Assembly (NCBI GenBank): GCA_049968235.1
Contig: JBMFRC010000009.1
Location: forward strand, 32,001-96,000
Direction of reading: 5' to 3'
DNA: 64,000 nt
Source of the DNA: Candidatus Hydrogenedens sp.
GTDB lineage: Bacteria > Hydrogenedentota > Hydrogenedentia > Hydrogenedentales > Hydrogenedentaceae
The position numbers were made by a program, and so were the translations under genes. Positions 5,916 through 50,796 of this stretch are shown in pieces; positions within the stretch are counted from its first letter, which is position 1, and each line of letters begins with the position of its first letter. The notes beneath the pieces were generated by a model. That model saw only the letters and a list, made by a program, of their open reading frames with translations. It ran no database searches and was not told the origin of the DNA.

Positions 5916-5924
5916 GATAATAGT

Positions 5925-6859: not shown

Positions 6860-6888
6860 TTGACATGATACACTATATATTGTATTAT
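6860..6888 (+). promoter_or_regulatory. Sigma70-like promoter inside the fliE-fliF gap
   Basis: TTGACA (6860-6865), 17-nt spacer, TATTAT (6883-6888); ~100 nt upstream of fliF. Confidence 0.35.
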
Positions 6889-6988
6889 ATAAACAAAAGT
6901 GATCTATTAGTTTGGTTTTGTTTGTTGTGTTACATTAAAATATATACAATAAGTTGATGAAAAATAAAAAGAAATATATAGTGTATTT

Positions 6989-8545: not shown

Positions 8546-8546
8546 T

Positions 8547-9584: not shown

Positions 9585-9592
9585 CAATCAGG

Positions 9593-11597: not shown

Positions 11598-11602
11598 TTG
11601 TC

Positions 11603-12061: not shown

Positions 12062-12099
12062 TTATAAATATATGGTATTGAAACATAGGAAACGAGAAT

Positions 12100-12675: not shown

Positions 12676-12767
12676 AATTCATTCCTTAATAAACTAATCT
12701 AATTCGAATTCAAAACTTATTCCTTGATTTGGTTGAAATATTAACTCTTTTTTTAAGGAGAGGATTT

Positions 12768-14264: not shown

Positions 14265-14276
14265 AGGAGAAATACT

Positions 14277-14903
14277 ATGAATGCAATGGTGCAATTTAAA
14301 TCAAATGTTTTGGGGATAAATTCTCCGACATCTGCTCAACGAACGGAAGTAATCAAAGAAATGAGTTCTTTGTATCAAGCGAAAAGAAAAGGATTACTTC
14401 AAAATTACCTAAAGAAAGTTATTGAATCAACAGATGCAAAAACTTTATCGGTTGCAAAGTCTGTTGATACGCCGTCCACCAGTAATAATACAGGGACAAT
14501 TCGAACTCCATCAAGAGAATTAAGTTCAGATACATTTTTACAATTACTTGTTATGCAAATGCAATATCAAGACCCATTGGAACCTGTTCAAAATACAGAA
14601 ATGCTTGCCCAATTAGCTCAATTTTCAGCACTGGAACAAACCATTAAAACAAATACAAATATAGCATTATTACAGCAAGAAATCCAGACTTTATCCCAGA
14701 ATGTGCAATTTATGTCTATGAACGCCAGTCAACAGATGATTGGTAGATACATTGAAGGTTCTTCACAAGATGGAACATCTGTAAAAGGGAAAGTGGATGC
14801 GGTATCCATTGAGAATGGGACAGTCTTTTTAAATGTAGGTTCGGATAAAGTTCCTATTACTCAGGTTCAAAGTGTCCGAGTAGAACAACCCAATACAAAG
14901 TGA
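14277..14903 (+). CDS. flgD: Flagellar hook capping/assembly protein FlgD
   Basis: ..DTFLQLLVMQMQYQDPLEPVQNTEMLAQLAQFSALEQ.. is the FlgD signature; AGGAG RBS. Confidence 0.85.
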   Translation: MNAMVQFKSNVLGINSPTSAQRTEVIKEMSSLYQAKRKGLLQNYLKKVIESTDAKTLSVAKSVDTPSTSNNTGTIRTPSRELSSDTFLQLLVMQMQYQDPLEPVQNTEMLAQLAQFSALEQTIKTNTNIALLQQEIQTLSQNVQFMSMNASQQMIGRYIEGSSQDGTSVKGKVDAVSIENGTVFLNVGSDKVPITQVQSVRVEQPNTK

Positions 14904-14977
14904 CGAAACATTCATCTGAAATGAAAAGAAGAGTCCTAAATATAAATTAAACCAATAAACCATAAGGAGATATAACT

Positions 14978-16237
14978 ATGGGAATGGCAATGTTAACAGC
15001 AGTAACAGGCTTACAGTCGCATCAACGACGGTTGGATGTAATTGCAAACAATATTGCAAATGTAAACACTGTAGGTTACCGTTCTTCTCGTGTTCTTTTT
15101 CAGGATTTGTTTTCTCAATTGTTAAGAGGTGGTTCTGCTCCGGTAGGGAATTTTGGAGGTTCCAATCCGCAACAGGTGGGGTTGGGTGTGCGTATCGCAA
15201 GTATTGATGTCAATCATCAACAAGGGTCACTTTTGTCTACCGGAGTTTCTTCGGATTTGGCAATACAGGGCAATGGTTTTTTTGTGTTGAGTGATGGACA
15301 AAAAATTGCTTTTACGCGGGATGGCTCCTTTGATTTAAACTCTAATGGGTTGCTTATTGACCCTGCTACTGGTATGCGCGTGCAAGGATATATTGCAGAT
15401 GATACCGGTGTTGTCAATACAGACCAGCCAGCACAGGATATTTCCATCCCCATTGGAAGTGCAGGGATTGTTCGTTCTACTACCAATGTGTATCTTATTG
15501 GAAATCTAAATGCGAATGCTCCTACGACTCCTACTCCAACTACAGTAACAAGGACAGTAGAGGTTTACGATTCTTTAGGTACTGCACAATTGGTAACTTT
15601 ATCATTTACGAAACAGGCAACCCCTGCAAACCAGTGGACATGGGAAGCTTCATACGACGGAAATACTGTAGGTAGTGGAGCATTAACATTTAGTACTTCT
15701 GGCACATTACCATCAGGCACTACAGGAACGATAACAATTCCTGGTGCATTAATGAATACAACAGGTTCTCAACCCAATGATTTAACATTCAATATTGATT
15801 TTAGTGAAATCACTCAATTGGCAACAGATAGTAGCACAGGTAGTGATGTTACAGTTCGTTCACAGGATGGTTTTCCAAGAGGTGTCCTTGAAAGTTTTAA
15901 TATCGGTGCCAATGGTGAAATTGTAGGAGTATTCAGCAACGGACTTACCCGCGTTTTTGCTCAGGTAGCCCTGGCAACATTTTCCAATGTAGGGGGATTG
16001 GTTCGCGATGGGAATAACATGTTCCTTGAAACCCCTGCATCCGGGGTCGCTCAAGTAGGTCCTCCCCGTTCTGGTAGTAGGGGAACTGTTTCCGGTGGTG
16101 TTCTGGAAAGTTCCAATGTAGATTTAGGTACAGAATTTAGTTCTTTAATTGTAACACAACGCGGATTTCAAGCAAATGCCCGAACCATAACTGCTGCGGA
16201 TACACTTCTTCAAGAGACCGTTAATTTAGGTAGATAA
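14978..16237 (+). CDS. flgE: Flagellar hook protein FlgE
   Basis: N-terminal ..NIANVNTVGYRSSRV.., ..GFFVL..; C-terminal ..VDLGTEFSSLIVTQRGFQANARTITAADTLLQETVNL. Confidence 0.85.
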   Translation: MGMAMLTAVTGLQSHQRRLDVIANNIANVNTVGYRSSRVLFQDLFSQLLRGGSAPVGNFGGSNPQQVGLGVRIASIDVNHQQGSLLSTGVSSDLAIQGNGFFVLSDGQKIAFTRDGSFDLNSNGLLIDPATGMRVQGYIADDTGVVNTDQPAQDISIPIGSAGIVRSTTNVYLIGNLNANAPTTPTPTTVTRTVEVYDSLGTAQLVTLSFTKQATPANQWTWEASYDGNTVGSGALTFSTSGTLPSGTTGTITIPGALMNTTGSQPNDLTFNIDFSEITQLATDSSTGSDVTVRSQDGFPRGVLESFNIGANGEIVGVFSNGLTRVFAQVALATFSNVGGLVRDGNNMFLETPASGVAQVGPPRSGSRGTVSGGVLESSNVDLGTEFSSLIVTQRGFQANARTITAADTLLQETVNLGR

Positions 16238-16286
16238 TCTTAATACATGATTTCATTAACAAAAAAATCCTACTAATTCCAAATAA

Positions 16287-16319
16287 GGCTGAGGCTTGAA
16301 AACCTCAGCCTATTTTTTT
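16287..16319 (+). terminator. Rho-independent terminator after flgE
   Basis: GGCTGAGG-cttgaaaa-CCTCAGCC stem-loop followed by tATTTTTTT. Confidence 0.6.
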
Positions 16320-16438
16320 AGTAGAATTGTAATAGCAAAGAGAGATTAAATCATGTTAAAATCAGAGACGAAGAGGTGTTTTATGTTGATGAAAAGAAAT
16401 GAAAATTTCTATATGAATAACATAGAAAAGGGAGTTCT

Positions 16439-17212
16439 ATGGATTTAGCAACTGTAATAGGACTGATTGCAGGTATATCTTTGACACTTATATCTATTCT
16501 GATGGGAGGGTCCATTACAATCTTTATAAATATACCTTCTTTCATTCTCGTTGTGGGAGGGACTATTGCATCTACACTAATTAATTATCCATTGAGCGAT
16601 GTGTTAAAGGTCTTTAATACAGTAAAGAATTCATTCATTCAGAAACTTACACCTGTCGAAACTTTGATTGAAAAGATTATTGAATTTGCCACTATTGCAC
16701 GAAGAGAGGGTATCCTTGCTCTCGAAGGACCTGCATCGGAATTAGACGACGAGTTTTTGCAACGAGGTATACAACTTGCGATTGATGGAACCGCACCCGA
16801 ATTGCTTAAAGACATTCTTACGACAGAATTGGCGTTTATGGAAGATAGACATGCGTTGGGGCAATCAGTTCTTTCTGCGATGGCTGCTTATGCTCCTGCC
16901 TTCGGAATGATAGGAACATTAATTGGTTTGGTGCAAATGCTTGCTACAATGGAAGACCCATCTCAAATTGGTATTGGTATGGCTGTTGCAATCTTAACTA
17001 CATTGTATGGAGCATTAATCGCTAACTTAATTATGTTGCCTCTTGCAGGAAAATTAAAAGTCAGAACCGCAGAAGAACTCCTTTTAAGGGAACTTATTAT
17101 TGAAGGTATTTTATCAATTCAATCAGGAGATAATCCTCGTGTTGTGGAACAGAAGTTAAAAGCATTTATTGCTCCTGAATTGCGAAAACGGATTGTAACA
17201 GGGAAAAAGTAG
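16439..17212 (+). CDS. motA: Flagellar stator protein MotA
   Basis: 4-TM MotA/TolQ/ExbB topology with conserved ..AFGMIGTLIGLVQML.. segment. Confidence 0.85.
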   Translation: MDLATVIGLIAGISLTLISILMGGSITIFINIPSFILVVGGTIASTLINYPLSDVLKVFNTVKNSFIQKLTPVETLIEKIIEFATIARREGILALEGPASELDDEFLQRGIQLAIDGTAPELLKDILTTELAFMEDRHALGQSVLSAMAAYAPAFGMIGTLIGLVQMLATMEDPSQIGIGMAVAILTTLYGALIANLIMLPLAGKLKVRTAEELLLRELIIEGILSIQSGDNPRVVEQKLKAFIAPELRKRIVTGKK

Positions 17213-17218
17213 GACATT

Positions 17219-17956
17219 ATGGCAAAGGAAAGAAAAAAGCAACCTGAAGGAGAAGGGGGAGCCCCTGGATGGGTAGTTACTTACGGAGATATGATGAGCC
17301 TATTACTAACTTTCTTTATTCTCCTCGTATCATTTTCGTCTATTAGTGAAGAAGACTTTAAGAAAGCAATGGGCTCATTGGAAGGCGCTTTAAGTGTGCT
17401 TCCAAAGAATGCAGGTGTTTTAGATTTACAAATGTTGAATCGGAGAGAACAGCAAAGAAAAATGCAGCAGGCAGCACAAAAAATAGCGGAAGAATTACAA
17501 ATTTTGGGACAAGATAAACAGGTCAAGGTAGAATATGATGCAAAAGGAGGAATCAAGATAACCTTTCCTGATTCTGTCTTATTTGATAGAGGAAGTGCAG
17601 ACCTGAAACCCGAGTCTTTTCCTATTATTGAAAGTGTGTCAAAGACATTAGAAGAACTTACGGATGTCTTTGTAGAAATAAAGGGGCATACAGATAATAC
17701 CCCTATAGTGAATAATCCTCGATATAGAGATAACTATGACCTGAGTTATTACCGCTCCGACCAGGTTATGCGTAAAATGCTTTCTATTAGTTCTCTTACT
17801 CCGGAGATGTTTGAAATTACTGCTTGTGGTTCAAGCCAGCCTATATCAACAAATTTAACTGAGGAAGGAAGAAAAGAAAATCGTCGTGTTGAGATTTTCG
17901 TGCGAGGTTTTGTGAGTGAGGAAAAGATGGAAATGATACAAAAGGGTATGCCTTGA
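17219..17956 (+). CDS. motB: Flagellar stator protein MotB (OmpA-like C-terminus)
   Basis: N-terminal ..GWVVTYGDMMSLLLTFFILL.. (MotB plug/TM); OmpA-like ..NRRVEIFV.. at the C-terminus. Confidence 0.85.
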   Translation: MAKERKKQPEGEGGAPGWVVTYGDMMSLLLTFFILLVSFSSISEEDFKKAMGSLEGALSVLPKNAGVLDLQMLNRREQQRKMQQAAQKIAEELQILGQDKQVKVEYDAKGGIKITFPDSVLFDRGSADLKPESFPIIESVSKTLEELTDVFVEIKGHTDNTPIVNNPRYRDNYDLSYYRSDQVMRKMLSISSLTPEMFEITACGSSQPISTNLTEEGRKENRRVEIFVRGFVSEEKMEMIQKGMP

Positions 17957-18022
17957 TTTTATTTTTCAGAATGTGTTTTTCTATTATTACAATGGATATA
18001 AACAGAATAAGGAATAATTTTT

Positions 18023-18571
18023 ATGGCAGATGAAAAACCACCGGAACAACAGGAACAAAAGAAATCATCATCAAGCCTTATAAAATTGCTCCTGATAGGG
18101 GGGGCGAGCGTGCTAATTCCAGCAATTAGTGCAATTGTTGTATTTATGTTTGTTTTACGCCCTATGCTATTAACAGATGACACAGAAGGGAAAGATACAC
18201 CTGCAACTGTTGATACTACTGATGCGATACCTGCAACGGCAGTGATAGTAAAGTTTGATGAGACACAGGCAACGGTAATTACACAAAAGTCAGATGCACC
18301 TGCACCCTTGCTAATTTATCAAGTTGCAATGTCCTGCTCCGGACCCGAGGTATCTGCTGTAATTGAGGGGAAAAAAGAATATTTTACAGCATTGATTAAT
18401 AAAATACATCGGAATCGTTCACGAACCGAACTTAATGACCCCGGTGTCCAGGAAGCATTATTAAGACAGACAAAAAATGAGGCAAATCAATTGTTAAATA
18501 AGTTATCTCCCGGTATTCAGGGGTCTATTCTCGAAGTAATGTATATTAAATATACGATTGTGGACTTATAA
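18023..18571 (+). CDS. fliL: Flagellar basal body-associated protein FliL
   Basis: 182 aa; charged N-terminus, single TM, periplasmic domain; position after motB. Confidence 0.6.
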   Translation: MADEKPPEQQEQKKSSSSLIKLLLIGGASVLIPAISAIVVFMFVLRPMLLTDDTEGKDTPATVDTTDAIPATAVIVKFDETQATVITQKSDAPAPLLIYQVAMSCSGPEVSAVIEGKKEYFTALINKIHRNRSRTELNDPGVQEALLRQTKNEANQLLNKLSPGIQGSILEVMYIKYTIVDL

Positions 18572-18573
18572 TA

Positions 18574-18906
18574 ATGGCTATACAAAATCCCGAAAATATA
18601 TCTGATTTTGTTCCTGATGAAGATTTGGAAAAGGAAACGTCTCCTTCCGCTGTTCATCTAACTCTAAATGATTTAGCAATGATTCCTATTAAGGTGAGTG
18701 CGGAGTTGGGAAGATGCTCTATAAAAATAAAAGATATTCTGAAATTAGATAAGGGGTCTATTGTTACATTAAATAAACAAGCAGGTGAATTGGCAGATAT
18801 ATTTTTTAATGGCATCCTTATAGGTAGAGGAGAGATGATAGTTTTAGCGGACACTTTACATATACGTATAGTTGAAATAGAGGGTTTTAAAAGAGATGAA
18901 GAATAG
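18574..18906 (+). CDS. fliN: Flagellar motor switch protein FliN (SpoA domain)
   Basis: ..IPIKVSAELGRCSIKIKDILKLDKGSIVTLNK..GRGEMIVL.. matches the FliN/SpoA C-terminal domain; 110 aa. Confidence 0.75.
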   Translation: MAIQNPENISDFVPDEDLEKETSPSAVHLTLNDLAMIPIKVSAELGRCSIKIKDILKLDKGSIVTLNKQAGELADIFFNGILIGRGEMIVLADTLHIRIVEIEGFKRDEE

Positions 18907-19705
18907 AAAAAATTTTTTTAGCGTAGTTTTCTTTTTATTCCTGCTATTCTATGGTGTTTATATTTTTGCAGAAAACAATTTTTCATCTGGGAATGACAGT
19001 GTTCTTGACAAATTAAAAGACCCTAAGCAATATGTCGAAAAAAATAATGAAGGCGGTGCCATGTCCACAAAAAATACGGAAGCAGTTCCGGAAAAGGAGA
19101 ATAACCCCTCTAATACGAATACATGGTTTTCCCAACATCAGAAGGTTTGGAGTTCCGAGCAAACAACCACTGGGAATACAGAAGGAGAAAATGTATCTTC
19201 AAATAGTTCCAATACAACGGAGACTTCCTGGATATATTATTTCTTTAGAACACTTGTTGCTCTTATCTTTGTCATCGGTTTAATACTGGTATTATTAGGA
19301 GTACTTCGTTACTTTTCAAACAAAACACATCGAGGGATGAAATCTATTGGAAAAATTGTAGGTGTTCTTTATTTATCTCCGCGTACACGGATTTATTATG
19401 TTCAGGGTGCTGGGAAAGTGTTTGTTCTAGGAGTTTCGGGAGACCAGATGAATTTGTTATTTGTCTTTTCAGAGGATGAATTTTTCGCATCTATTGCAAA
19501 TGAAGATAGTACAGAGTCTTCTTATTCTCAAAAAACATTTAAGAAGGTTCTGGATGATGTAGAAACGAGGATACAATCACAAAGTTCTTCTAAAATGCCC
19601 GAAGTATCAGAGAATATAGACGATGAATTGGCTTCTTTGAAAGTAAATATACAAAGATTACAGCAAGCGATACGAGAAGAAACAAATAATGCATCAGACC
19701 AGTAG
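18896..19705 (+). CDS. fliO: Flagellar biosynthesis protein FliO/FliZ-like
   Basis: Signal-like N-terminus, S/T/N-rich spacer, TM (..LVALIFVIGLILVLLGVL..) followed by ..KIVGVLYLSPRTRIYYVQGAGKVFVLGVSGDQMNLL.. (FliO core); precedes fliP. Confidence 0.55.
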   Translation: MKNRKNFFSVVFFLFLLFYGVYIFAENNFSSGNDSVLDKLKDPKQYVEKNNEGGAMSTKNTEAVPEKENNPSNTNTWFSQHQKVWSSEQTTTGNTEGENVSSNSSNTTETSWIYYFFRTLVALIFVIGLILVLLGVLRYFSNKTHRGMKSIGKIVGVLYLSPRTRIYYVQGAGKVFVLGVSGDQMNLLFVFSEDEFFASIANEDSTESSYSQKTFKKVLDDVETRIQSQSSSKMPEVSENIDDELASLKVNIQRLQQAIREETNNASDQ

Positions 19706-20513
19706 AATTTTTAATATGAGGATAAAAAAAAAGAGTATTTTAAACAATAAAAAAATGGGATTTTTTTTTGTTTGTTTTTCCGTTTTATTGCTATTCGATT
19801 CCTTTGCGCAACCTTCTCGAAATTCAATAACCAATCCCACAGGCATAAATATTGTCGGAACAGCACAGCAAGCAATAGACCCTGAAAATCTATCTACCAC
19901 ATTAACACTGGTAATACTTATTACCGCACTTACATTAGCACCTGCAATTCTCGTATTAACCACATCTTTTACGAGGATAATCGTAGTTCTTGCTTTCCTT
20001 CGACAGGCATTAGCAATACAACAGACCCCTCCCAATCAAGTTTTAATTGGCTTATCTCTATTTTTAACTATGTTTATTATGATGCCAACCTATGAGCGAG
20101 TTAATCGTGAATCGATACAACCTTATATTCAACAGCAAATTAGCCAATCGGAAGCATTTAATCGTGCTTTAATTCCTATCCGCGAATTTATGTTCAAACA
20201 AACAAAGCCTCAGGAACTCAAAACGATGTTGCAAATATCAGGAAGGGGTAGACCCAATACCCCGGATGATGTCCCCACACATGTTCTTATACCTGCTTTT
20301 GTTTTGAGTGAACTTAAAACGGCTTTTATGATAGGTTTTTTATTATATATTCCCTTTTTAATTATTGATATGGTAGTAGCAAGTACATTAATGTCTATGG
20401 GCATGATGATGCTACCTCCAATTTTCGTCTCGTTACCTTTTAAGATAATTCTTTTCGTTCTTGTAGATGGATGGACATTAGTTGTAGGCAATTTGGTAAA
20501 AAGTTTCCAATAG
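19689..20513 (+). CDS. fliP: Flagellar type III export apparatus protein FliP
   Basis: ..TSFTRIIVVLAFLRQALAIQQTPPNQVLIGLSLFLTMFIMMP.. is highly conserved FliP. Real start is probably at the internal MGFFFVCF signal sequence. Confidence 0.9.
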   Translation: MHQTSRIFNMRIKKKSILNNKKMGFFFVCFSVLLLFDSFAQPSRNSITNPTGINIVGTAQQAIDPENLSTTLTLVILITALTLAPAILVLTTSFTRIIVVLAFLRQALAIQQTPPNQVLIGLSLFLTMFIMMPTYERVNRESIQPYIQQQISQSEAFNRALIPIREFMFKQTKPQELKTMLQISGRGRPNTPDDVPTHVLIPAFVLSELKTAFMIGFLLYIPFLIIDMVVASTLMSMGMMMLPPIFVSLPFKIILFVLVDGWTLVVGNLVKSFQ

Positions 20514-42619: not shown

Positions 42620-44308
42620 TCATTTCACAGTATTTTGAAAATAATCACAACATTTTTTGATTTTCTTTGTCATTAATGTTGAACGCTCATATCCGCCTCG
42701 ATAAATATTTAATGTCTGTTTTGCCAATTCCAGTGGATTACTTCCTTCCAGATTATCTCGTTCAAATTTCGTAACAAGGGTAATAGGTTTTAAATATGAA
42801 TTTAATTCCCCATAGATTCGTATTTGTTCGTCAATTTCGGATAATAATTTAACCTGTTCACGTGCTTTTATAATCTTGCTATCCGCTATAGTATTTTTTA
42901 ATTGTTCTGTAATATGAATTCCCTGTTTATATTTTCCCGCCAATTCCTCAAAAGAATTTCGAAATTCCTTGTTCCATACCGCAAGAGTTTTTGCATCGGG
43001 AGTATTATAAAATTGGAAAAATTTGTGAAGATTATCCGATTCTGTTTGTTTATGGGGATTCACATTAAGATGTTCCAGCCACATTAACCGATAGGCAAAG
43101 CGTAGAAAATCTTTCTCATCAATTTCTCGACGAATAACGGGATAAAATTGCAGACAACCATCGGGAGCAAATTCCGAGATATGAACATTTACATTATCCA
43201 TATCGGGTGTAAGTTCATGCTGAATTAATTGTTTCTTCTTACGCGTGGAGAAAAGCCAATCAATTGCTTTGAGGACCTGCTCAGGTTGTATCTTATCTAA
43301 AGGATGAACATCGGAAGACTTTGAAGAAATATCCATCTTAAAAGAACGTTCTCTCATTTCGATAGCACAATTTCCTACGCCATAGGGACCTGTTTCGCGA
43401 AAATGCACATAGCCAACAGACACAAGCATTACAGGACATTTTACTGCCGATGCAAGATGCATAGTGCCTGTATCATTGGTTACTAATAAATGGGAGCGTT
43501 TTAATAATCCTGCCAACTGTGGAATGGTCGTTTTACCAAAAAGCGGAATTGCCAGACCGGGAACTTCCTTTTGAAATCTTTGACCCAATTCCGCTTCTGA
43601 TGGAATACCTACAAGAAATATCCGTGCCCTGCACTTTTCATGTAACTTTTTCCCTAATTGTGCAAAATATTCCGCAGGCCAACGTTTATTCGTTTCACTG
43701 GCACCCAGTTGCATACATACAACAAAATCTTCGGGTGTAATATGATACTCCGCAAAGAGATGGTCTGTAAATTCCATTGCATTAGAATTCACCTCAAAGG
43801 TGAGTTCTTTTACAGGTTCGGGTATCGGTTCATAGAGTTTGAATATATCGCATAAGTTCAAATCATTATAATCCCGAGAAAGAACGCTGGTAAAGAAGTA
43901 AACCGTCCACGGTCCCCGTAATGTGAATTGCCAATCTTCGGATAAATGTGCCCCGATAACTTTAGGAATTTGTGCCAATTTTAATAACAAAGCGGAAGAT
44001 GTGCTGTGAGTTATGTTATAAGCAATATCAAAGTTCCGTTGTCGTAAATCAAGAATTAACTTTTCTACCTCTTTGTATGCATTTAAATATCGGTCTGAAT
44101 CTCTCGCAATCATATCGGAGAAAATGGGGTCTTCTTGATAAATAATATAATCATTTACATCCGTATTGGCTTTAATAACCTCTTCACTCATTGCCCGTAT
44201 CATAACAGTAATATGGGCATCTGGATATTTAATACGAATCTGACGGAATAGGGGGGTGGTCTGAATTGTATCGCCAATCCTTGCAGTTTGCAAAACAAGT
44301 ATTTTCAC
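42620..44308 (-). CDS. Glycosyltransferase family 9 (heptosyltransferase-like) with ~180-aa C-terminal extension
   Basis: ..MKILVLQTARIGDTIQTTPLF.., ..KRWPAEYFAQLGKKL..IFLVGIPSE.., ..HLLVTNDTGTMHLASAV..PVMLVSVG.. GT9 motifs; 562 aa versus ~330-350 for LPS heptosyltransferases. Confidence 0.7.
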   Translation of the reverse strand: MKILVLQTARIGDTIQTTPLFRQIRIKYPDAHITVMIRAMSEEVIKANTDVNDYIIYQEDPIFSDMIARDSDRYLNAYKEVEKLILDLRQRNFDIAYNITHSTSSALLLKLAQIPKVIGAHLSEDWQFTLRGPWTVYFFTSVLSRDYNDLNLCDIFKLYEPIPEPVKELTFEVNSNAMEFTDHLFAEYHITPEDFVVCMQLGASETNKRWPAEYFAQLGKKLHEKCRARIFLVGIPSEAELGQRFQKEVPGLAIPLFGKTTIPQLAGLLKRSHLLVTNDTGTMHLASAVKCPVMLVSVGYVHFRETGPYGVGNCAIEMRERSFKMDISSKSSDVHPLDKIQPEQVLKAIDWLFSTRKKKQLIQHELTPDMDNVNVHISEFAPDGCLQFYPVIRREIDEKDFLRFAYRLMWLEHLNVNPHKQTESDNLHKFFQFYNTPDAKTLAVWNKEFRNSFEELAGKYKQGIHITEQLKNTIADSKIIKAREQVKLLSEIDEQIRIYGELNSYLKPITLVTKFERDNLEGSNPLELAKQTLNIYRGGYERSTLMTKKIKKCCDYFQNTVK

Positions 44309-44310
44309 AG

Positions 44311-46095
44311 TTATTTCTCCCGTAGCAGATTTTCACCAAAAATACGAACTTCATTCAAATACCAGAATACCTGAACAGGTAATGGAACATTATCATCCAG
44401 AATAGGCAAATGTTTATTAATTTCCTCCTGTAAAAAGGGTATGTCCTGAGGTAGTTTTGCAAGCCATTGTCCCAGAGGGCTATCTTTTCCATATCGTTCG
44501 ATGATTTCTCCTACAGTTCTCTGTATACGCATTCCCTTCCTCATGATTTTTCCACCATAATATTCTTTAATATAATCCAACATTTGATTGGCACGGTGCT
44601 CATAAGTATGCTCTTTTAAAGCCCGTTTTTGTGCATTTTGGGCTATCTGCTTTCTTTCTTCTTCATGTTGCAAAAAATAGTCTATTTTATTCCGAAGTGT
44701 TTTTAAGTCTGTATAGGTAGGGATTTCATTTTGAGTATCAAATAAATTTTCTAATCCCTTACAGGGGTCGCAAAGTTGAAATCCACCTGCTGATGCAATT
44801 TCAAATACGCGGGGATTGATAGCATCAGCCTCCGGGTCAACTCCTTCATGAATGACACTGGAATGAAGGTTTAGGTTAATCTTTGACCCAGCCACAATTT
44901 TCATATATTCTTCTGTATTAAACCCTTTATTCCCTTCTACCACATGAGGGAGCAATTCTAATTCATTCCAGTTTACTCCCCATATTTTTAAGTTGTAATC
45001 AGTTAGTCCTTTTAACATCTTAATACGATTATAATATCCTGCCCCTGCAAAGGATAAATCACACCTGTATTTTTTCTCTTCGTCTGGACTTAAAGAGACA
45101 GGTGCATGAAGTTCCGGATCACATGCGGTAAATATAGGGAAATGGCAATTACAACCAATAGCATCCAATTTGTTATCAAACTCTCCGGGTTGAATATGAA
45201 AAAATAAATTATAAAAAGGTGCTATTTCTTTCCAGTAACTAAGGTGCCGCCAGTTCTCCACAAACCAGAATGCAGTTACAATTCCTCGTTCATTCAATCT
45301 TGAAACAAATAAGTTTGTAACGGGAGCCTGCGCCATAACAATACAAATCTCCGGCTGAAATTCTAATACTTGAGCCAGGCACCATTCAGAAAGAAACTTT
45401 GTATAGAAATCTTCAAGCGAATGAGCAATTCGGGTTGTTTTCAGAGTTTTGCCGATAGCATTAAAGACATTCCACGCTATTTCAGTATCTACAAGAAGTG
45501 TTTGATGACCCAATTTCCGAAAAGCCTGATTTAAATATCGAGTAATAGGAAGAGAACCTCCATACATAGGACCTACAATGGCAATGTTGAAGTGTTGTCG
45601 GTTGAAGCATTCCCGGGATATTCGTTTAATTAACATTTCGCAAAATTCAGGATAAATCCGACTTACAACAGGATGGAAAAAAGGTTGAGGTATTTTATCA
45701 AGATAATCATTGAAGAAAGAATCATTAAAAAGGCAATCTAATGTATCAGGAATGGCAAGTAATAGGTCATCAGGTAATAGATTATTTTGAATGGCTGTAA
45801 ATGCTACGTCTTTATCGGGTTCAATGACAATAATTTTATATTCTTTCTGAATGAGTTCCTGGATATGATAACCCAATCCCAGCCCAACAACAACTACAGG
45901 CCGCTTTTTATCCAGAGAAGAACCTTCTACTAATTTTTTGGCTTCCTCTATGGGATTGTATTGGCTGTGATAAAGAAGTCCTGTTATACGAATTGTTTTT
46001 ATACCTTTGCGTTTTTCGACCAATTCAACGCGTTCACTCCTATAATTTTCAGGAATTTCTTTTCTCCATTCTGCAATAGATTTAAACATCTTCAT
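44311..46095 (-). CDS. Two-domain protein: N-terminal Rossmann-like domain (GLGLGYH motif, possibly Maf/MptE-like) + C-terminal CgeB-family (Glyco_trans_1_2) glycosyltransferase domain
   Basis: ..RPVVVVGLGLGYHIQELIQKEYKIIVIEPDKDVAF..; C-terminal ..KINLNLHS..NPRVFEIASAGGFQLCD.. and ..KEHTYEHRANQMLDYI.. CgeB-like. 2-nt gap to downstream GT9 gene. Confidence 0.55.
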   Translation of the reverse strand: MKMFKSIAEWRKEIPENYRSERVELVEKRKGIKTIRITGLLYHSQYNPIEEAKKLVEGSSLDKKRPVVVVGLGLGYHIQELIQKEYKIIVIEPDKDVAFTAIQNNLLPDDLLLAIPDTLDCLFNDSFFNDYLDKIPQPFFHPVVSRIYPEFCEMLIKRISRECFNRQHFNIAIVGPMYGGSLPITRYLNQAFRKLGHQTLLVDTEIAWNVFNAIGKTLKTTRIAHSLEDFYTKFLSEWCLAQVLEFQPEICIVMAQAPVTNLFVSRLNERGIVTAFWFVENWRHLSYWKEIAPFYNLFFHIQPGEFDNKLDAIGCNCHFPIFTACDPELHAPVSLSPDEEKKYRCDLSFAGAGYYNRIKMLKGLTDYNLKIWGVNWNELELLPHVVEGNKGFNTEEYMKIVAGSKINLNLHSSVIHEGVDPEADAINPRVFEIASAGGFQLCDPCKGLENLFDTQNEIPTYTDLKTLRNKIDYFLQHEEERKQIAQNAQKRALKEHTYEHRANQMLDYIKEYYGGKIMRKGMRIQRTVGEIIERYGKDSPLGQWLAKLPQDIPFLQEEINKHLPILDDNVPLPVQVFWYLNEVRIFGENLLREK

Positions 46096-46120: not shown

Positions 46121-49100
46121 TCATAATGATTCCAATCGTTTTAATTCCTTTCCCAGTACATTATCACTCCCAAATAACGCTATATGCTCCTTTATCATAT
46201 TTACTGCTTCCTTTACCCTGTGATGTTGAGATAGGAAAGTCGAATACTTCAGGATAAGTGAAACATCTCCGGGGTAGAAATCTATAAACGCTTTAATTGT
46301 TTGTTCCGCAGATTCGATATAGCCTAATTGTTCGCATACATAAATATATAGGTCAAGAATCCCCGGATAATCATAACTGTTCGAAAAGGCATAATTTAAG
46401 TGTTTATAAGATTCGTGCATATTCCCTGATTGTAAATATCCCTGTCCCATGGCAAGGTGCAGACGAATATTCTCAGGTTCTTCTTGGAATACTTTTCCCA
46501 ATAATTCTAACGCTGTTTGCGTTTGATTCATTGCTAATAATAGCAGTCCATAATCTATATGTAATTCATTATTTTTTTCAATTTCTAATGCTTTCAGATA
46601 ACATTCTTGTGCTTTTACAAGGTTACCCGTGTGAGCATACGCTTTCCCTTCAATACTGTATCGTTTCCATAGAGGCAAGTCGCTTTCTGTTTTTGCAAGT
46701 TCAAATAACAGGTCCGTTCTCCCTGCTTCCAATAATTTGCGAACCTGTTCATTGATTTCATTTATATCCGAAGGGAGTTTTTGTGCAATAACGATATATT
46801 GGAAGGTGCGGAACACCTCATATTCTTCGTCGCTGATTTTATCAATACAAATTTTACCCATGTGTAAATTCCCATTTTCATCACGGGGTATTATGTCCTC
46901 AGATGCTATGGAAAGAGGTCCAATAGCATTAATCAGGAGACCTGTTTTACGAATAAATTCTTGTAAAGTATCTCTCGTGTAAAATTTCAAATGAGTTATA
47001 TCCTGAATTCCGGAATCACGATAGTCCCACCTCCCAAGAGATAAACCAAAAATAACACCCCAATATTGGACATTAGGAATGCTGATGATAACATAACCAT
47101 ACGGTTTTAGATAACGAATTAAATTTCGCAATGCTTTCTCGGGGTGTTCTGTATGTTCTAATACATCACAACAGGTAATTACATCAAAATAATCATTTTC
47201 AAATGGGAAATCATCCTTCTCAATATTTCCAATAAAAACTTTATCTAAAACCTTTTTGGCAATTTCAGCAATGTCAGGTACAATTTCTATTCCTACCACT
47301 TCCTCCACACCCAATTCACGTTTCATTGCTAATCCAAAATTCCCTGTAGCACAGCCAATATCGAGAACCTTTTTTGTCCCATCGGGAATATATTTTAAGA
47401 CCTCTCTTCTCTCAGAAGAGTAATAGTTTATAGGTTTAATTTCCAATCGTTTCGCTTTTGTTGTATCAATCTTGAAAATTTCCTCTACCTTCTTAATAAT
47501 CTGTTGGCACCTATGGTAATAAGTATGACTCTCTAATACCTTTTGTTGTCCCTGCCTTGCGATTTGCTCTCGTTCCTCTTTATGCTCCAGATAATACCGA
47601 ATTTTTTCAATTAAGTCCTTTTCATTTTCATAAATAACAAGATCTTTACCATCCTCAAACAATTCCAGAATACTATCTGCAGGGTCTGTAACTAGTAAAG
47701 CACCTCCTGCCATACCTTCAAATACTCTCATGTTTAAATCGTAATTAATTGCAGAATTCACAACAATTTTACTTCTTGAATACACTTCCCCCATTTCAAG
47801 AGGCCATTTTTTACCAATATAATGATTTGGAAATATTTCGGCTACTTTCATTAATAACCTTCTTCTTTTATCTCCTTCATCAGGCGATAAACTACCTACA
47901 TAAGAAACATCTATGTCACGAGACAATTCTTTTTGGGGATATAGTTCAGGACAACATGCAAGAGGTAGCCAGAAGACATAACGGACACCCTGCTCCTTAA
48001 AAAGTTTGACATGACTTTGTTGAGCCAGAAACACAATGTCAAAATGCTTTGCTATTTCCAACCGTGTTTGAAAGTCCAGGTGGGTATCAATAAGATACGC
48101 CACACGAGGAATATTGAGCATGTCTATCATAGGGTCAACTGTTTTAAGACCGGAATCAACATAGATATAAAAATCTGATGGATATCCTGATGGAATACCT
48201 GCTAAAAGATTCTCTATGCGTTTATCGCCAAAGGAGGTAGGAATCCTTTGCGGAGGATATGGTGGAGGATTTTGAAATCCCCACTTATATAACAAATCTT
48301 CAGGACATCGAAAACCCGATGTTATAACATCATGGTCTTTTTCAAAGGCAAATTCAAAATATCGGGCTGTTGTGTGGGGTGAAGTTATATAATCTAATAT
48401 AATGCGATAGTGCTTTTTCGCTGTTGATGGTTTTGTTATCTGAATAGAAGTGGTTTCTTTTCCACTTTGTTTCAATATTATCTTCTGCCAATTATCAACA
48501 AATTGAGATATAGGAAATTTCTTTTGAACAGTTTCTCTACCTCGTGTTCCTATTTCCCTGGCTAAGTCCGGATTTCCTAAGAGGAGTTCCAGATATTTGC
48601 GTAGCTGTGCTGGGTCAAAAGAAGTAAAGCCATCTACTCCATTTGTAATAGGAGAAGAACGATTGTTTAGAGCAACCACTGGCATACCACAAGCCATTGC
48701 CTCTAATGTAGAAAGATTATATCCATCTTCAAATTCCTGACGGGTGATATGTAATAGACAGCGGTTCAAACGATATGCAGACAGCAATTCTTCAAAGTTT
48801 ATAGATGGCTTTGAATTTTCAACCCCCGGATTTTCTCCCACAATAATATTGGGTAATCCCTTGCAGAGAGCCTCCTGTAATGGGAAATCAAACATCCAGT
48901 TCCGCACCTGCATATAATTGCCTACTCGCAAAATTACTTCTTTACTCCCCGCATAGCCTCCATATTCTTCTATATCAATTCCGGGTAGAACCACATACCC
49001 CGGATAACCATAATCATCTCTTTTAGAAGGGGAAATAAATACGAAAGTGAATCGTTCAGATAGGATATTTATGACCTTCTCAAAATTATTAACAACAAAA

Positions 49101-49426
49101 ACATCGTTCTTTGGGAGTGTTGTTTTCAGATAGGTTTTTCTGTTATGACATACAAGAATTTTAGGGCAATTTGCTTCGCGAATATCCCAGGCATTTGTTT
49201 CATTATGTGCAATAACAATATCATAATAGCCTTTAAAAACTCGTTCCCGCCACTCATTTTCAGGGACTTCATGTAAATTTTCAGGTATAGGTCGAAATTC
49301 CGTTTTCCACTTTCGAGCAAGCAGTCCCTCGCTATATAACCCCAAATCCATCTCAAACCCTGTTTTTGCCATCAAACACATGTAAGGCTCATGAAAATTA
49401 AAGGTTAAGATTTTAAGTTGTCCCAT
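46121..49426 (-). CDS. 1101-aa multidomain protein: GT-B (GT4-like) glycosyltransferase + CgeB-family glycosyltransferase + class I SAM-dependent methyltransferase + C-terminal TPR repeats
   Basis: ..EDGYNLSTLEAMACGMPVVA.. (GT4 C-terminal motif); ..NMRVFEGMAGGALLVTD..KVLESHTYYHRCQQII.. (CgeB); ..KVLDIGCATGNFGL..FDVITCCDVLEHTEHPEKAL..LKPYGYVIISIPN.. (methyltransferase motifs I-III); TPR-like helical repeats in the last ~250 aa. Confidence 0.7.
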   Translation of the reverse strand: MGQLKILTFNFHEPYMCLMAKTGFEMDLGLYSEGLLARKWKTEFRPIPENLHEVPENEWRERVFKGYYDIVIAHNETNAWDIREANCPKILVCHNRKTYLKTTLPKNDVFVVNNFEKVINILSERFTFVFISPSKRDDYGYPGYVVLPGIDIEEYGGYAGSKEVILRVGNYMQVRNWMFDFPLQEALCKGLPNIIVGENPGVENSKPSINFEELLSAYRLNRCLLHITRQEFEDGYNLSTLEAMACGMPVVALNNRSSPITNGVDGFTSFDPAQLRKYLELLLGNPDLAREIGTRGRETVQKKFPISQFVDNWQKIILKQSGKETTSIQITKPSTAKKHYRIILDYITSPHTTARYFEFAFEKDHDVITSGFRCPEDLLYKWGFQNPPPYPPQRIPTSFGDKRIENLLAGIPSGYPSDFYIYVDSGLKTVDPMIDMLNIPRVAYLIDTHLDFQTRLEIAKHFDIVFLAQQSHVKLFKEQGVRYVFWLPLACCPELYPQKELSRDIDVSYVGSLSPDEGDKRRRLLMKVAEIFPNHYIGKKWPLEMGEVYSRSKIVVNSAINYDLNMRVFEGMAGGALLVTDPADSILELFEDGKDLVIYENEKDLIEKIRYYLEHKEEREQIARQGQQKVLESHTYYHRCQQIIKKVEEIFKIDTTKAKRLEIKPINYYSSERREVLKYIPDGTKKVLDIGCATGNFGLAMKRELGVEEVVGIEIVPDIAEIAKKVLDKVFIGNIEKDDFPFENDYFDVITCCDVLEHTEHPEKALRNLIRYLKPYGYVIISIPNVQYWGVIFGLSLGRWDYRDSGIQDITHLKFYTRDTLQEFIRKTGLLINAIGPLSIASEDIIPRDENGNLHMGKICIDKISDEEYEVFRTFQYIVIAQKLPSDINEINEQVRKLLEAGRTDLLFELAKTESDLPLWKRYSIEGKAYAHTGNLVKAQECYLKALEIEKNNELHIDYGLLLLAMNQTQTALELLGKVFQEEPENIRLHLAMGQGYLQSGNMHESYKHLNYAFSNSYDYPGILDLYIYVCEQLGYIESAEQTIKAFIDFYPGDVSLILKYSTFLSQHHRVKEAVNMIKEHIALFGSDNVLGKELKRLESL

Positions 49427-49465: not shown

Positions 49466-50104
49466 TTAGGTTGTTTTAATAATATATTGGATTGCCAATT
49501 GTTTTAACTGACCCACGATTTCAGGTTCTTTTTCTGCAAGAGGAGCTAATTCATATTCCAGCAAGTCCCCAAGACCAATACAATCGTTATTTTCGAGAGA
49601 TTTATATGCTTCCTCAAGAACATGATTCAATTCGTCATGATGTTCTTTTATCTTCCTTATAATAGGATTCTCTTCCGTTACATGGGAACTCAATATATTG
49701 ATTATAAGTGCCTCTCTTTTTTTAATTTCACTCCATATCTCCGAAAGTTTCTGAAAAGGGTCAAATCCTTCATCCGGATTTTCACTCTGAAATACCCGAG
49801 CAATTTCACAACATAAATCACTTAATTCCGGTGAATATAATTCCAAATCCGCAATACCTTCCTCCACCAATTGGTAAATTGGATAGGTATTAATTTCTAA
49901 TGTCCGTATATTAGAGATATTCATTTCTTGAATAGATTCTAATGACCTACCGGGATATACTTCTTGCTCATTAACTCTTAACTTTACCATTGCCAGTTGT
50001 TGACTATTAAGAAAATTCATAATCTCGTTCAGAGCCGATTGAAGTGTATCCGGCGAATTGGAAAATTGAAATCCTTTTACTCCATCAATGAGCACTTCCA
50101 TCAC
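49466..50104 (-). CDS. Hypothetical acidic protein co-transcribed downstream of csrA
   Basis: 212-aa ORF overlapping the csrA stop by ~20 nt; 39 nt upstream of the big GT/MTase gene; no recognisable domain. Confidence 0.4.
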
Positions 50105-50336
50105 GGGGGTCTCCTTTGTTGGGTTGGAAAACGGGAATATCCTTCGGGGGTTCTACCCGTGCTGCCTCTTCATTTTCCGCTTTGATTGATAGATATACCT
50201 CTTTCCGATGAACAGGAATAGAACGCGGTGCTTCTATCCCTATTTTGACCTGATTTTCCCGTAATTCAAGCACTTTGATTTCGATATTATCGCCAATCAT
50301 TATGCTTTCATCTTCCTTACGCGTAAGCACAAGCAT
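50085..50336 (-). CDS. csrA: Carbon storage regulator CsrA (flagellin translation regulator)
   Basis: [48 protein letters not shown] is canonical CsrA; AGGAGG RBS; start 1 nt after the fliW stop. Confidence 0.9.
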
Positions 50337-50337
50337 A

Positions 50338-50796
50338 TTAGACCTCCTGTCTATTAGTTGGTTGTTCATTTTGGGGTTGCGCAAGGAACCATTGAACAGG
50401 GTAATCCGTTCTGTCCAATACCATTTGCTTTGCTAACCTTGTTTTTGTATTTATTACAATGGGGGCTCTTAAATTTGTCCGGATTTTGGTCGGGTCTTCC
50501 GGAACCACAAGTAATGTATATATGGAAATCTCCTGAGGAGAATCGGCTTGTAATTCATGTAAATCCTGGGGAGTAAAAGAAACCTGATAATCTGGCAAAA
50601 CCTGCAAAGGTTCTAACAAAAGAAAAGCCAATGCACCATCTTCTATAGACTGAAGCCACCAAAGAGGGCTATCTTTAGGTCCTGGCAATAACATAAACTT
50701 CTGACAATTCTGAAATCCTAAAATAGGTTTTACAAATAGAAGAATTTGATTCTCATCAATTTCTATCTCACCGAATCGTGTTGTTTGTAGTTTCAT
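50338..50796 (-). CDS. fliW: Flagellar assembly factor FliW
   Basis: ..[46 protein letters not shown].. and ..[20 protein letters not shown].. match FliW. Start taken at internal MKLQTT; the ORF track extends upstream to 50943. Confidence 0.85.

What the first reader, a model, noticed from the sequence alone, without database searches (positions are those of the whole stretch)
46121..49426. Single 1101-aa polypeptide combining two glycosyltransferase domains, a SAM methyltransferase and TPR repeats
Four modules sit in one chain: a GT4-type domain (EDGYNLSTLEAMACGMPVV), a complete CgeB-type domain, a class I SAM-methyltransferase (DIGCATGNFG ... CCDVLEHTEHPEKAL ... YGYVIISIPN) and ~250 aa of TPR at the C-terminus. 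Two glycosyl-transfer activities, one methyl transfer and a protein-binding repeat could together synthesise and methylate a short glycan on a TPR-bound protein substrate. Its position directly after fliW-csrA makes flagellin a candidate substrate.
Basis: partly seen in the sequence, partly recalled or inferred. Interest (0 to 1): 0.6.

Follow-up and report, generated by a model that had tools for sequence, protein, structure and literature searches.

The report
Flagellin sugar-coating enzyme gene cluster
The 1101-residue protein is real and is the largest enzyme of a gene cluster, conserved across a little-known bacterial phylum, that most likely attaches a short methylated sugar chain to flagellin; this is a new variant of a known kind of system, supported here by gene context only.

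Summary
The ORF exists at 46121-49426 on the minus strand (1101 aa). It has four confident domains: a GT4-like GT-B (1-324), a CgeB-like GT-B (337-654), a class I SAM methyltransferase (668-885) and TPR (888-1101). The quoted motifs are all present. The window comes from a Candidatus Hydrogenedens relative.

The protein is not a one-off. At least 120 protein clusters (40-100% identity) keep the same length and the same Pfam domain families. The GT-GT-MT core recurs at 34-40% identity in Nitrospinota and Desulfobacterales.

It belongs to a conserved module: fliW-csrA-X212 (DUF8042/TP0873_N)-BIG-(Maf-N-like + CgeB-like GT)-GT9-like GT. In Hydrogenedentota-type loci, 47 of 48 have fliW, csrA and X212 upstream. 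Downstream, 39 of 41 have the two further GT genes.

Elsewhere, X212 relatives sit next to flagellin, or between fliS and a Maf flagellin glycosyltransferase. In a Desulfobacterales MAG the module abuts an flg operon. The window itself carries a flgB-to-fliP operon.

Verdict: a cytoplasmic flagellin O-glycosylation island. No flagellin gene was found in any Hydrogenedentota locus. It is a new variant of a known kind, of moderate interest.

The parts
46121..49426 (-). BIG: 1101-aa four-domain enzyme. GT4-like GT-B (aa 1-324), CgeB-like GT-B with DUF3880 + Glyco_trans_1_2 (337-654), class I SAM methyltransferase (668-885), TPR (888-1101).
   Evidence: ORF; Pfam; AF2 model with pLDDT 85.3 and linkers; Foldseek and PDB matches; the best 120 homologue clusters listed keep the same length and Pfam domain families.
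49466..50101 (-). X212: 211-aa DUF8042/TP0873_N protein. N-terminal alpha/beta domain (1-74) plus a four-helix bundle (75-210), with invariant D173, D179 and E184 at the start of the last helix. Candidate flagellin-glycosylation adaptor.
44311..46095 (-). CgeB594: 594-aa glycosyltransferase. Maf-N-terminal-like region (about aa 1-135), DUF3880 (276-354) and Glyco_trans_1_2 (361-507).
   Evidence: Pfam (Glyco_trans_1_2 3e-37; Maf_flag10_N 22.6 bits against a 23.5 cut-off). tblastn of a genuine Maf N-terminus hits this region in the window (45856-46062, E 7.6e-9) and in more than 60 loci. Follows BIG in 39 of 41 Hydrogenedentota-type loci and in all 21 other loci.
42620..44308 (-). GT9_562: 562-aa GT9-like (heptosyltransferase-fold) glycosyltransferase with a C-terminal extension of about 210 aa that has no family match.
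   Evidence: Pfam Glyco_transf_9 1.4e-26. NCBIfam heptosyltransferase II 104 bits, below the 134.6 cut-off. Syntenic with BIG and CgeB594. Extension sequence.
50085..50336 (-). csrA (83 aa counted from the Met that aligns with CsrA position 1). Its stop overlaps the start of X212.
   Evidence: Pfam CsrA 1.6e-26; NCBIfam CsrA above cut-off; sequence.
50338..50796 (-). fliW (152 aa from the ATG at 50796, sequence [15 protein letters not shown]...). First gene of the cluster.
   Evidence: Pfam FliW 1.8e-35; NCBIfam FliW models match residues 50-195 of the longer ORF; start read from the sequence.
5514..20513 (+). Flagellar operon: flgB, flgC, fliE, fliF, fliG, fliH, fliI, fliJ, fliK, flgD, flgE, motA, motB, fliN, fliO, fliP. 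It shows that the organism encodes a flagellum.
   Evidence: Pfam; tblastn.

Best explanation
The ORF encodes the central enzyme of a cytoplasmic flagellin O-glycosylation island, probably co-transcribed with fliW-csrA, the regulators of flagellin homeostasis.

Shown here:
- A four-domain protein with conserved catalytic motifs.
- A module (X212, BIG, Maf-N/CgeB-like GT, GT9-like GT) conserved across Hydrogenedentota, with its three-GT core also in Nitrospinota and Desulfobacterales.
- Repeated physical linkage of its parts to flagellar filament genes.

Inferred mechanism:
1. Newly made flagellin is held in the cytoplasm.
2. The fast-evolving TPR tail of BIG, the Maf-N-like domain of the next GT, and the four-helix-bundle protein X212 recruit flagellin.
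3. Up to four glycosyl transfers follow: two by BIG, one by the CgeB-like GT and one by the GT9-like GT. They prime Ser/Thr and extend a short glycan.
4. The methyltransferase domain of BIG O-methylates a sugar, probably as a terminal cap.
5. Sharing an operon with fliW-csrA would supply the machinery whenever flagellin translation is licensed.
For: Architecture and motifs:
- Domains and motifs.
- The best 120 homologue clusters listed keep the same length and Pfam domain families.

Gene context of BIG:
- Synteny counts of 47/48 upstream and 39/41 downstream.
- Intergenic gaps in the window of about 1 to 39 nt, with csrA and X212 overlapping.
- Desulfobacterales L081 has BIG-MT-CgeB-GT9 divergent from flgG...flgI-flgJ-flgM-flgN-flgK-flgL-csrA-fliW.
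- Nitrospinae L084 has a Maf/MptE-like gene inserted inside the module and X212 after GT9.

Gene context of X212 relatives:
- Between fliS and Maf in nonulosonic-acid islands (L085, L088).
- Directly upstream of flagellin (L087).
- After GT9 (L086, L089, L090, L078).

Other evidence:
- The N-terminus of CgeB594 resembles the Maf N-terminus in more than 60 loci.
- The window holds a flagellar operon.
- No transmembrane segment in any module protein.
- TPR is the fastest-evolving domain (23% identity against 43-52% for the catalytic domains).

Literature:
- Maf-1 binds flagellin through a C-terminal TPR, and Maf-2 needs the cis-encoded four-helix-bundle adaptor GlfM, which has an essential Asp in its last helix (bioRxiv 10.1101/2023.12.03.569772).
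- GT+TPR is used to call flagellin glycosyltransferases in Clostridium islands that are bounded by fliW (PMC13317340).
Against: - No flagellin gene is present in the window or in any of the 83 BIG loci (tblastn with B. subtilis Hag).
- No glycan or flagellin data exist for this phylum.
- In Nitrospinaceae the three-GT core sits among housekeeping genes, with no flagellar gene within 10 kb.
- GT9 and GT4 are typical of LPS and polysaccharide synthesis.
- No nucleotide-sugar pathway is encoded in the cluster. An rmlA-like gene lies nearby only in the Hydrogenedens clade.
- No sigma-28-type promoter was found upstream of fliW.
- Homology of X212 to GlfM could not be tested.
- Enzymatic activity of each domain is inferred from motifs only.
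Confidence: 0.68

Rival explanations
1. The module builds a non-protein glycoconjugate, such as an LPS-core-like oligosaccharide or another cell-envelope or exopolysaccharide unit. Its adjacency to fliW-csrA would then reflect CsrA-type regulation or chance.
For: - The GT9 fold is that of LPS heptosyltransferases.
- GT4 and CgeB-like domains are common in polysaccharide synthesis; NCBIfam lists EpsE and PEP-CTERM glycosyltransferases as weak hits.
- In Nitrospinaceae the three genes stand among housekeeping genes.
- An alginate-export-type porin gene lies at 40366-41931.
Against: - No priming phosphoglycosyl transferase, flippase, polymerase or exporter is conserved with the module.
- All module proteins lack transmembrane segments.
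- GT9_562 scores below every LPS heptosyltransferase cut-off.
- The TPR tail, the Maf-N-like domain, an inserted Maf gene and the X212 family tie the module to flagellar filament loci in several phyla.
- The porin is on the other strand, and the cluster's flanks differ in distant relatives.
Confidence: 0.12
2. The module glycosylates a protein other than flagellin: another flagellar axial protein (FlgK, FlgL, FliD or hook), a pilin, or an S-layer or surface protein.
For: - The TPR and adaptor logic fits any protein acceptor.
- B. subtilis CgeB is linked to spore-surface glycosylation (from my own knowledge, not checked here).
- No flagellin gene is adjacent in Hydrogenedentota.
Against: - FliW is a flagellin-specific partner (established knowledge).
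- X212 relatives sit immediately next to flagellin or fliS, the flagellin chaperone gene, and Maf.
- No alternative acceptor gene is conserved with the module.
Confidence: 0.1
3. The glycosyltransferase reading holds, but the methyltransferase domain methylates flagellin residues directly, as the lysine methylase FliB does, rather than a sugar. This sub-rival concerns one domain only.
For: - Flagellin lysine methylation exists, and FliB is encoded in some glycosylation islands (PMC13317340).
- The closest solved relative, 3cc8, has no assigned substrate.
Against: - The domain is a Methyltransf_23/11-type class I fold with small-molecule and sugar O-methyltransferases among its structural neighbours, such as D-glucose O-methyltransferase 6uv6 and RebM 3bus.
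- It is fused in cis between a GT and the TPR in every homologue, which fits processing of the nascent glycan.
- A FliB relationship was not tested directly.
Confidence: 0.15

Closest known systems
Maf-1 of Shewanella oneidensis (flagellin pseudaminyltransferase with a C-terminal TPR)
   Same: - A glycosyltransferase fused to a C-terminal TPR domain that binds flagellin and sets acceptor specificity (10.1101/2023.12.03.569772).
- Encoded in a flagellar locus.
- Cytoplasmic.
   Different: - Maf uses a MAF_flag10 (GT-A-like) catalytic domain and CMP-nonulosonic acid donors.
- BIG has no MAF_flag10 domain. It carries two GT-B domains and a methyltransferase.
- Only the neighbouring CgeB594 has a Maf-N-like region.
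GlfM-Maf-2 tripartite system (Shewanella, Kurthia, Pseudomonas)
   Same: [quoted passage not shown]
- X212 has a four-helix bundle with invariant D173, D179 and E184 at the start of the last helix.
- In L085 and L088, X212 sits exactly between fliS and Maf.
   Different: - GlfM is 89 aa. X212 is about 208 aa, with an extra N-terminal alpha/beta domain.
- Sequence homology was not testable here because no GlfM sequence was available.
- X212 also accompanies non-Maf GTs.
FlmG of Caulobacter crescentus
   Same: - A modular flagellin O-glycosyltransferase that combines a TPR flagellin-binding module with a glycosyltransferase module (PMC7591256, listed).
   Different: - From my own memory, not read here: FlmG has its TPR at the N-terminus, a single GT domain and no methyltransferase, and it transfers pseudaminic acid.
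- Sequence relationship not tested.
Clostridial flagellar glycosylation islands with GT+TPR enzymes and methyltransferases
   Same: - Variable islands within flagellar loci; in pathogenic C. butyricum strains the conserved cluster is bounded by flgB and fliW.
- They encode GTs with TPR repeats that are taken as flagellin GTs, together with methyltransferases (PMC13317340).
   Different: - There the activities are separate genes, GT2-type or Maf, and highly strain-variable.
- Here GT, GT, MT and TPR are fused, and the island is conserved phylum-wide.
Bacillus subtilis CgeB / Pfam Glyco_trans_1_2 and B. cereus BCE_1332 methyltransferase (PDB 3cc8)
   Same: - Domain 2 of BIG and the C-terminal part of CgeB594 match the CgeB-like family.
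- The methyltransferase domain is 33% identical to 3cc8, with TM-score 0.79 normalised to 3cc8.
   Different: - Both references are themselves biochemically uncharacterised.
- No CgeB-like structure was found in the PDB by sequence.

Membership tests
CAZy GT4-like retaining GT-B (domain 1, aa 1-324) | GT-B fold with two Rossmann-like lobes | tested here: met
   The AF2 model shows alternating beta/alpha elements over 1-324 with pLDDT mostly above 85. Foldseek top glycosyltransferase hits are the GT4 enzymes BshA, MshA, PglA and TarM, E 1e-11 to 1e-10.
CAZy GT4-like retaining GT-B (domain 1, aa 1-324) | E-x7-E motif in the C-terminal lobe | tested here: inconclusive
   phmmer alignment to TreT places D234 on the first Glu and E242 on the second. 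The motif is therefore D-x7-E with an adjacent E233, and all three are invariant in 18 homologues. This is a conservative variant, and its activity is untested.
CgeB-like glycosyltransferase (Pfam PF13524 Glyco_trans_1_2, with DUF3880) | Profile match above the curated cut-off | tested here: met
   149.9 bits against a cut-off of 25, residues 522-644. DUF3880 scores 24.2 against a cut-off of 25.2. NMRVFE..G is invariant.
Class I SAM-dependent methyltransferase | Rossmann-like fold with glycine-rich motif I and an acidic residue at the end of beta-2 | tested here: met
   Methyltransf_23 scores 85.5 bits. D689-x-G691-C692-x-x-G695, E714 and D754-x-L756-E757-H758 (V755 nearly invariant) are invariant. 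PDB 3cc8 matches at E 3e-59 by profile, and at 33% identity with TM-score 0.79 by Foldseek.
TPR repeat domain | Tandem helix-turn-helix repeats matching TPR profiles | tested here: met
   TPR_14 scores 37.1 bits and TPR_2 scores 32.7 bits. There are 13 helices over 888-1100 with pLDDT around 90. Profile hits to the OGT TPR and to designed TPR proteins.
Maf (motility-associated factor) flagellin glycosyltransferases | MAF_flag10 / MptE-like catalytic domain (PF01973) | tested here: not met
   No PF01973 hit in BIG, CgeB594 or GT9_562. Only the Maf N-terminal region is shared by CgeB594 (22.6 bits, below the 23.5 cut-off; tblastn E 7.6e-9). The system therefore works like a flagellin glycosyltransferase system but is not a Maf.
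Flagellar glycosylation island (functional class) | Glycosyltransferase genes physically linked to flagellar filament genes across lineages | tested here: met
   47 of 48 Hydrogenedentota-type loci have fliW-csrA upstream. L081 is divergent from the flg operon. X212 relatives lie next to flagellin or fliS-Maf.
Flagellar glycosylation island (functional class) | Demonstrated glycan on flagellin that depends on the genes | not testable with these tools
   Needs mass spectrometry and genetics. No flagellin gene was even recovered for this organism.
GlfM adaptor family (for X212) | Sequence homology to S. oneidensis SO_3260 | not testable with these tools
   No GlfM sequence was available. Only the fold class (four-helix bundle), the acidic residues in the last helix and the gene position next to Maf agree.
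LPS heptosyltransferases (GT9) for GT9_562 | Score above the equivalog cut-off of RfaC, RfaF or RfaQ models | tested here: not met
   The best score is 104.4 bits for heptosyltransferase II against a cut-off of 134.6, and all other models are further below. Pfam GT9 family-level membership is met (93.8 bits against 22).

The most novel reading that the evidence does not exclude
X212 (DUF8042/TP0873_N; 5344 clusters at 50% identity, all unnamed) may be a widespread, undescribed flagellin-glycosylation adaptor that serves both Maf-type and GT-B-type enzymes.

In Hydrogenedentota it would physically couple the FliW-CsrA partner switch to a multi-enzyme 'glycosylation factory' scaffolded by the TPR tail of BIG. 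Flagellin translation, glycosylation and methyl-capping would then be licensed as one checkpointed step.
Probability: 0.2. Interest if true: 0.7.

Novelty: new variant of a known kind. Interest (0 to 1): 0.45.

Why it matters
Flagellin glycosylation is known mainly from Maf- and FlmG-type sialyl-like transferases in cultured Proteobacteria, Campylobacterota and Firmicutes.

This locus would add four things:
- A different enzyme set (GT4-like, two CgeB-like GTs, a GT9-like GT and a fused methyltransferase) with a fused TPR.
- Conservation across an uncultured phylum, together with Nitrospinota.
- Operon-level coupling to fliW-csrA.
- A concrete, testable role for a large family of unnamed proteins (DUF8042), and a first functional context for CgeB-like glycosyltransferases outside spores.

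The GT-GT-MT-TPR fusion also acts as a natural 'Rosetta stone', indicating which activities work together.

Tried and rejected
- **Flagellin gene near the locus.** tblastn with B. subtilis Hag found none in the window (E up to 10) or in the 83 BIG loci (E up to 1e-4). Queries with flagellar proteins from L081 and L085 hit only flgE in the window.
- **Sigma-28-type promoter upstream of fliW.** A regex for TAAA-N13-17-CGATAW matched 2 of 51 upstream regions, so it is not a conserved feature. The generic sigma-70 and terminator scans were at background level.
- **X212 in local libraries.** There were no hits in the local Pfam or NCBIfam copies. No PDB relative was found by sequence.
- **Literature.** Searches for TP0873, for 3CC8, and for CgeB with flagellin gave nothing useful.
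- **Nitrospinaceae neighbours.** Annotation of conserved neighbours showed only housekeeping genes, which is uninformative.
- **An early note corrected.** I first noted that the methyltransferase is split off in L081. The L081 protein in fact keeps the methyltransferase domain and has only a reduced TPR tail; the extra 276-aa gene is an additional methyltransferase-like protein.
Full report
**1. The observation**

An ATG-started ORF of 1101 codons occupies 46121-49426 on the minus strand.

Pfam finds four kinds of domain:
- Glyco_trans_1_4 / Glycos_transf_1 at 213-283.
- DUF3880 at 456-513, just under its cut-off, followed by the CgeB-type Glyco_trans_1_2 at 522-644 (E 6e-44).
- Methyltransf_23/11/31/25/12 at 675-830.
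- TPR at about 910-1008.

An AlphaFold2 model built on 18 homologues has mean pLDDT 85.3. It shows low-confidence linkers at 325-336 and 655-667, and a low-confidence loop at 801-808 inside the methyltransferase. From these I place four globular units at 1-324, 337-654, 668-885 and 888-1101. The last unit has 13 helices.

Foldseek against the PDB returns two kinds of hit:
- The Bacillus cereus putative methyltransferase 3cc8, at 33% identity and TM-score 0.79 normalised to the target. A profile search matches the same entry at E 3e-59 over positions 658-883.
- A run of GT4 enzymes: BshA, MshA, PglA and TarM.

Domain 2 has no solved relative detectable by sequence.
- The gene is on the minus strand.
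- The TPR part is about 214 aa.
- A 211-aa gene lies between csrA and this ORF.

**2. Catalytic motifs**

I aligned 18 homologues that go down to 40% identity. The following are invariant:
- N10-F-H-E-P-Y15, R167-V-G-N170 and E233-D-G-Y-N-L238...E242-A-M244..G247-M-P249 in domain 1.
- D424-S-G, I446-D447 and H449, W486-L-P-L489 and C491, and N565-M-R-V-F-E570 in domain 2.
- D689-x-G691-C692-x-x-G695, E714, D754-x-L756-E757-H758, and S782-x-P784-N785 in the methyltransferase.

Alignment to the GT4 trehalose synthase TreT puts D234 on the first Glu of E-x7-E and E242 on the second. The motif is thus a conservative D-x7-E variant with an adjacent invariant Glu.

Mean identity of the window protein to the 13 distant homologues differs by domain:

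| Domain | Identity |
|---|---|
| GT-B 1 | 52% |
| GT-B 2 | 47% |
| Methyltransferase | 43% |
| TPR | 23% |

The three catalytic units are under stronger constraint than the repeat tail.

**3. Organism and family**

The nearest database protein is 100% identical and is labelled Candidatus Hydrogenedens sp.. The locus is 87% identical to Ca. Hydrogenedens terephthalaticus (L004). G+C content is about 36%.

The best 120 protein clusters listed are all 1066-1135 aa and carry the same Pfam domain families, at 40-100% identity; 665 proteins reach E 1e-3. A scan of one genome per species found 579 genomes with a relative. The best 80 are Hydrogenedentota, followed by Nitrospinota and two Desulfobacterota MAGs at 34-40% identity over nearly the full length.

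The GT-GT-MT core (about residues 1-890) is 37-39% identical in a Desulfobacterales protein of 960 aa, whose TPR tail is reduced to about 75 aa. It is similarly conserved in a Nitrospinae protein of 1366 aa, which has an insertion of about 300 aa followed by TPR. The trifunctional core is therefore old, and the TPR tail is variable.

**4. Gene neighbourhood**

On the minus strand the window reads as follows:
- fliW (50338-50796)
- csrA (50085-50336)
- X212 (49466-50101)
- BIG (46121-49426)
- a 594-aa CgeB-like GT (44311-46095)
- a 562-aa GT9-like GT (42620-44308)
- a nitroreductase

The gaps up to the GT9 gene run from a 17-nt overlap (csrA/X212) to 39 nt.

I searched the window proteins against 83 related loci by tblastn:
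- In Hydrogenedentota-type loci with enough sequence, 47 of 48 have FliW, CsrA and X212 immediately upstream. The exception, L040, has an insertion of about 1 kb.
- Of those loci, 39 of 41 have the CgeB-like and GT9-like genes downstream. The exceptions are L010 and L017.
- The flanks outside this six-gene block differ between distant members: DNA polymerase III alpha and an EF-hand protein in L001, against rmlA-like and nitroreductase genes in L003. The block itself is what is conserved.
- In Nitrospinota and the other loci, the three GT genes stay together in all 21 loci, but fliW, csrA and X212 are not within 10 kb upstream (0 of 19). In Nitrospinaceae the neighbours are housekeeping genes.

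**5. Links to the flagellar filament outside the phylum**

- (a) In the Desulfobacterales MAG L081, the BIG gene is divergently adjacent to an operon that includes flgG, flgI, flgJ, flgM, flgN, flgK, flgL, csrA and fliW.
- (b) In Nitrospinae L084, and likewise in L078 and L075, a Maf/MptE-like gene is inserted between BIG and the CgeB-like GT. MptE-like is the hallmark domain of flagellin nonulosonic-acid transferases. In L084 and L078 an X212 relative follows the GT9 gene.
- (c) A profile of X212 finds relatives, all carrying the precomputed Pfam labels DUF8042 with or without TP0873_N. Their contexts are:
  - flgK-flgL-flagellin-fliD-fliS-X212-Maf followed by Pse/Leg-type sugar genes (L085, L088)
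  - X212 directly upstream of a flagellin gene (L087)
  - CgeB-like GT-GT9-X212 (L086, L089, L090)
- (d) The first 110 residues or so of the 594-aa GT resemble the N-terminal domain of a genuine Maf in the window (E 7.6e-9) and in more than 60 loci, with E-values down to 3e-13. Pfam Maf_flag10_N scores just under its cut-off.
- (e) The window itself carries a flagellar operon from flgB to fliP at 5514-20513.
- (f) The Nitrospina/Nitromaritima core genome is reported to be predicted to encode flagellar assembly genes (PMC5029188), and Ca. Hydrogenedentes is listed among phyla with flagellin sequences (PMC7018530).

**6. The small protein X212**

The family is large and entirely unnamed. It has 5344 clusters (at 50% identity) at E 1e-3 and 2998 at 1e-10. 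Some variants of 330-347 aa carry an N-terminal TPR.

Unay et al. (bioRxiv 10.1101/2023.12.03.569772) showed two modes of flagellin recognition:
- Maf-1 binds flagellin through its C-terminal TPR.
- Maf-2 needs a cis-encoded 89-aa four-helix-bundle adaptor, GlfM, with an essential Asp in the last helix.

X212 matches GlfM in fold class, in its acidic last-helix motif and in its gene position next to Maf. It is twice as long, however, and I could not test sequence homology.

**7. Most likely mechanism**

The following is shown:
- The domain architecture.
- Motif conservation.
- A conserved module and its repeated linkage to filament genes.
- Absence of transmembrane segments in all module proteins.

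The following is inferred:
- The module is a cytoplasmic flagellin O-glycosylation island.
- Flagellin is recruited by the TPR tail of BIG, the Maf-N-like domain of the next GT and/or X212.
- Up to four glycosyl transfers build a short glycan on Ser/Thr.
- The fused methyltransferase O-methylates a sugar, plausibly as a cap.
- Co-transcription with fliW-csrA ties supply of the machinery to the flagellin translation checkpoint.

Confidence in the flagellin-glycosylation reading is about 0.68.

**8. Rivals**

- Envelope glycan or LPS-like synthesis, about 0.12. The GT9/GT4 families and the Nitrospinaceae context speak for it. The lack of priming, flippase or polymerase genes, sub-threshold heptosyltransferase scores and the filament links speak against it.
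- Another protein acceptor, about 0.10.
- As a sub-question, direct methylation of flagellin by the methyltransferase domain, about 0.15.

**9. Comparison with known systems and novelty**

The logic is that of known flagellar glycosylation islands. These include TPR-bearing flagellin GTs such as Maf-1 and FlmG, the clostridial GT+TPR enzymes (PMC13317340), and the GlfM adaptor.

It is not a Maf system, because no MAF_flag10 domain occurs in BIG or its two window neighbours. The new features are:
- The enzyme set: a GT4-like domain, two CgeB-like domains and a GT9-like GT.
- The GT-GT-MT-TPR fusion.
- Phylum-wide conservation.
- The operon link to fliW-csrA.
- The DUF8042 partner.

I rate it a new variant of a known kind, with moderate interest (0.45). 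All evidence is comparative, and no flagellin gene or glycan data were available for this lineage.

Noticed in passing
window 5514-20513 (+): Large flagellar operon: flgB, flgC, fliE, fliF, fliG, fliH, fliI, fliJ, an MgtE_N/FliG_M-like gene, fliK, flgD, flgE, motA, motB, an unassigned 182-aa gene, fliN, fliO and fliP. It stops at fliP. The next ORF (20526-20975) has no family hit, and fliQ, fliR, flhB and flhA are not in the window.
   Followed up: partly
window 51077-52383, between the rmlA-like gene (52459-53187, -) and fliW: About 1.5 kb holding short plus-strand ORFs, including an Mrr_N fragment (51461-51868), and a strong 17-bp-stem terminator-like hairpin at 51993-51953. In L003 the rmlA-like gene lies about 0.6 kb from fliW, so this stretch looks like an insertion remnant.
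   Followed up: no
loci L007, L008, L010, L014-L017, L024, L025 and others: ENA MAG records titled 'uncultured Nitrospirales/Nitrospiraceae bacterium' carry the Hydrogenedentota-type six-gene locus, with up to 74% protein identity to the window. Their taxonomic labels are probably wrong.
   Followed up: no
window 42620-43260 (-), C-terminal ~210 aa of the GT9-like protein: A helix-rich, charged extension after the GT9 domain with no Pfam or NCBIfam match. It lies within the region matched over about 550 residues in other loci.
   Followed up: no
L085 6383-9595 and L088 4276-7482: Unusually long FliD cap proteins (about 1070 aa) with an inserted F5/8 type C (discoidin-like) domain. They occur in the same islands that hold X212 and Maf.
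   Followed up: no
X212 family (P0280, P0319, P0330 and others): Variants of about 325-347 aa in which only the C-terminal four-helix part matches the profile. One cluster is annotated as a TPR protein, which suggests TPR-DUF8042 fusions.
   Followed up: partly
window 50085-50336 (-): CsrA has an extension of about 25 aa beyond the canonical core (…[28 protein letters not shown]), and its stop overlaps the X212 start by about 17 nt.
   Followed up: no
L081 12849-13679 and 19496-21364: In the Desulfobacterales locus, an extra stand-alone methyltransferase-like gene follows BIG. A sigma-54 activator and a separate 622-aa TPR protein follow the GT9 gene, while the TPR tail of BIG itself is reduced.
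   Followed up: partly
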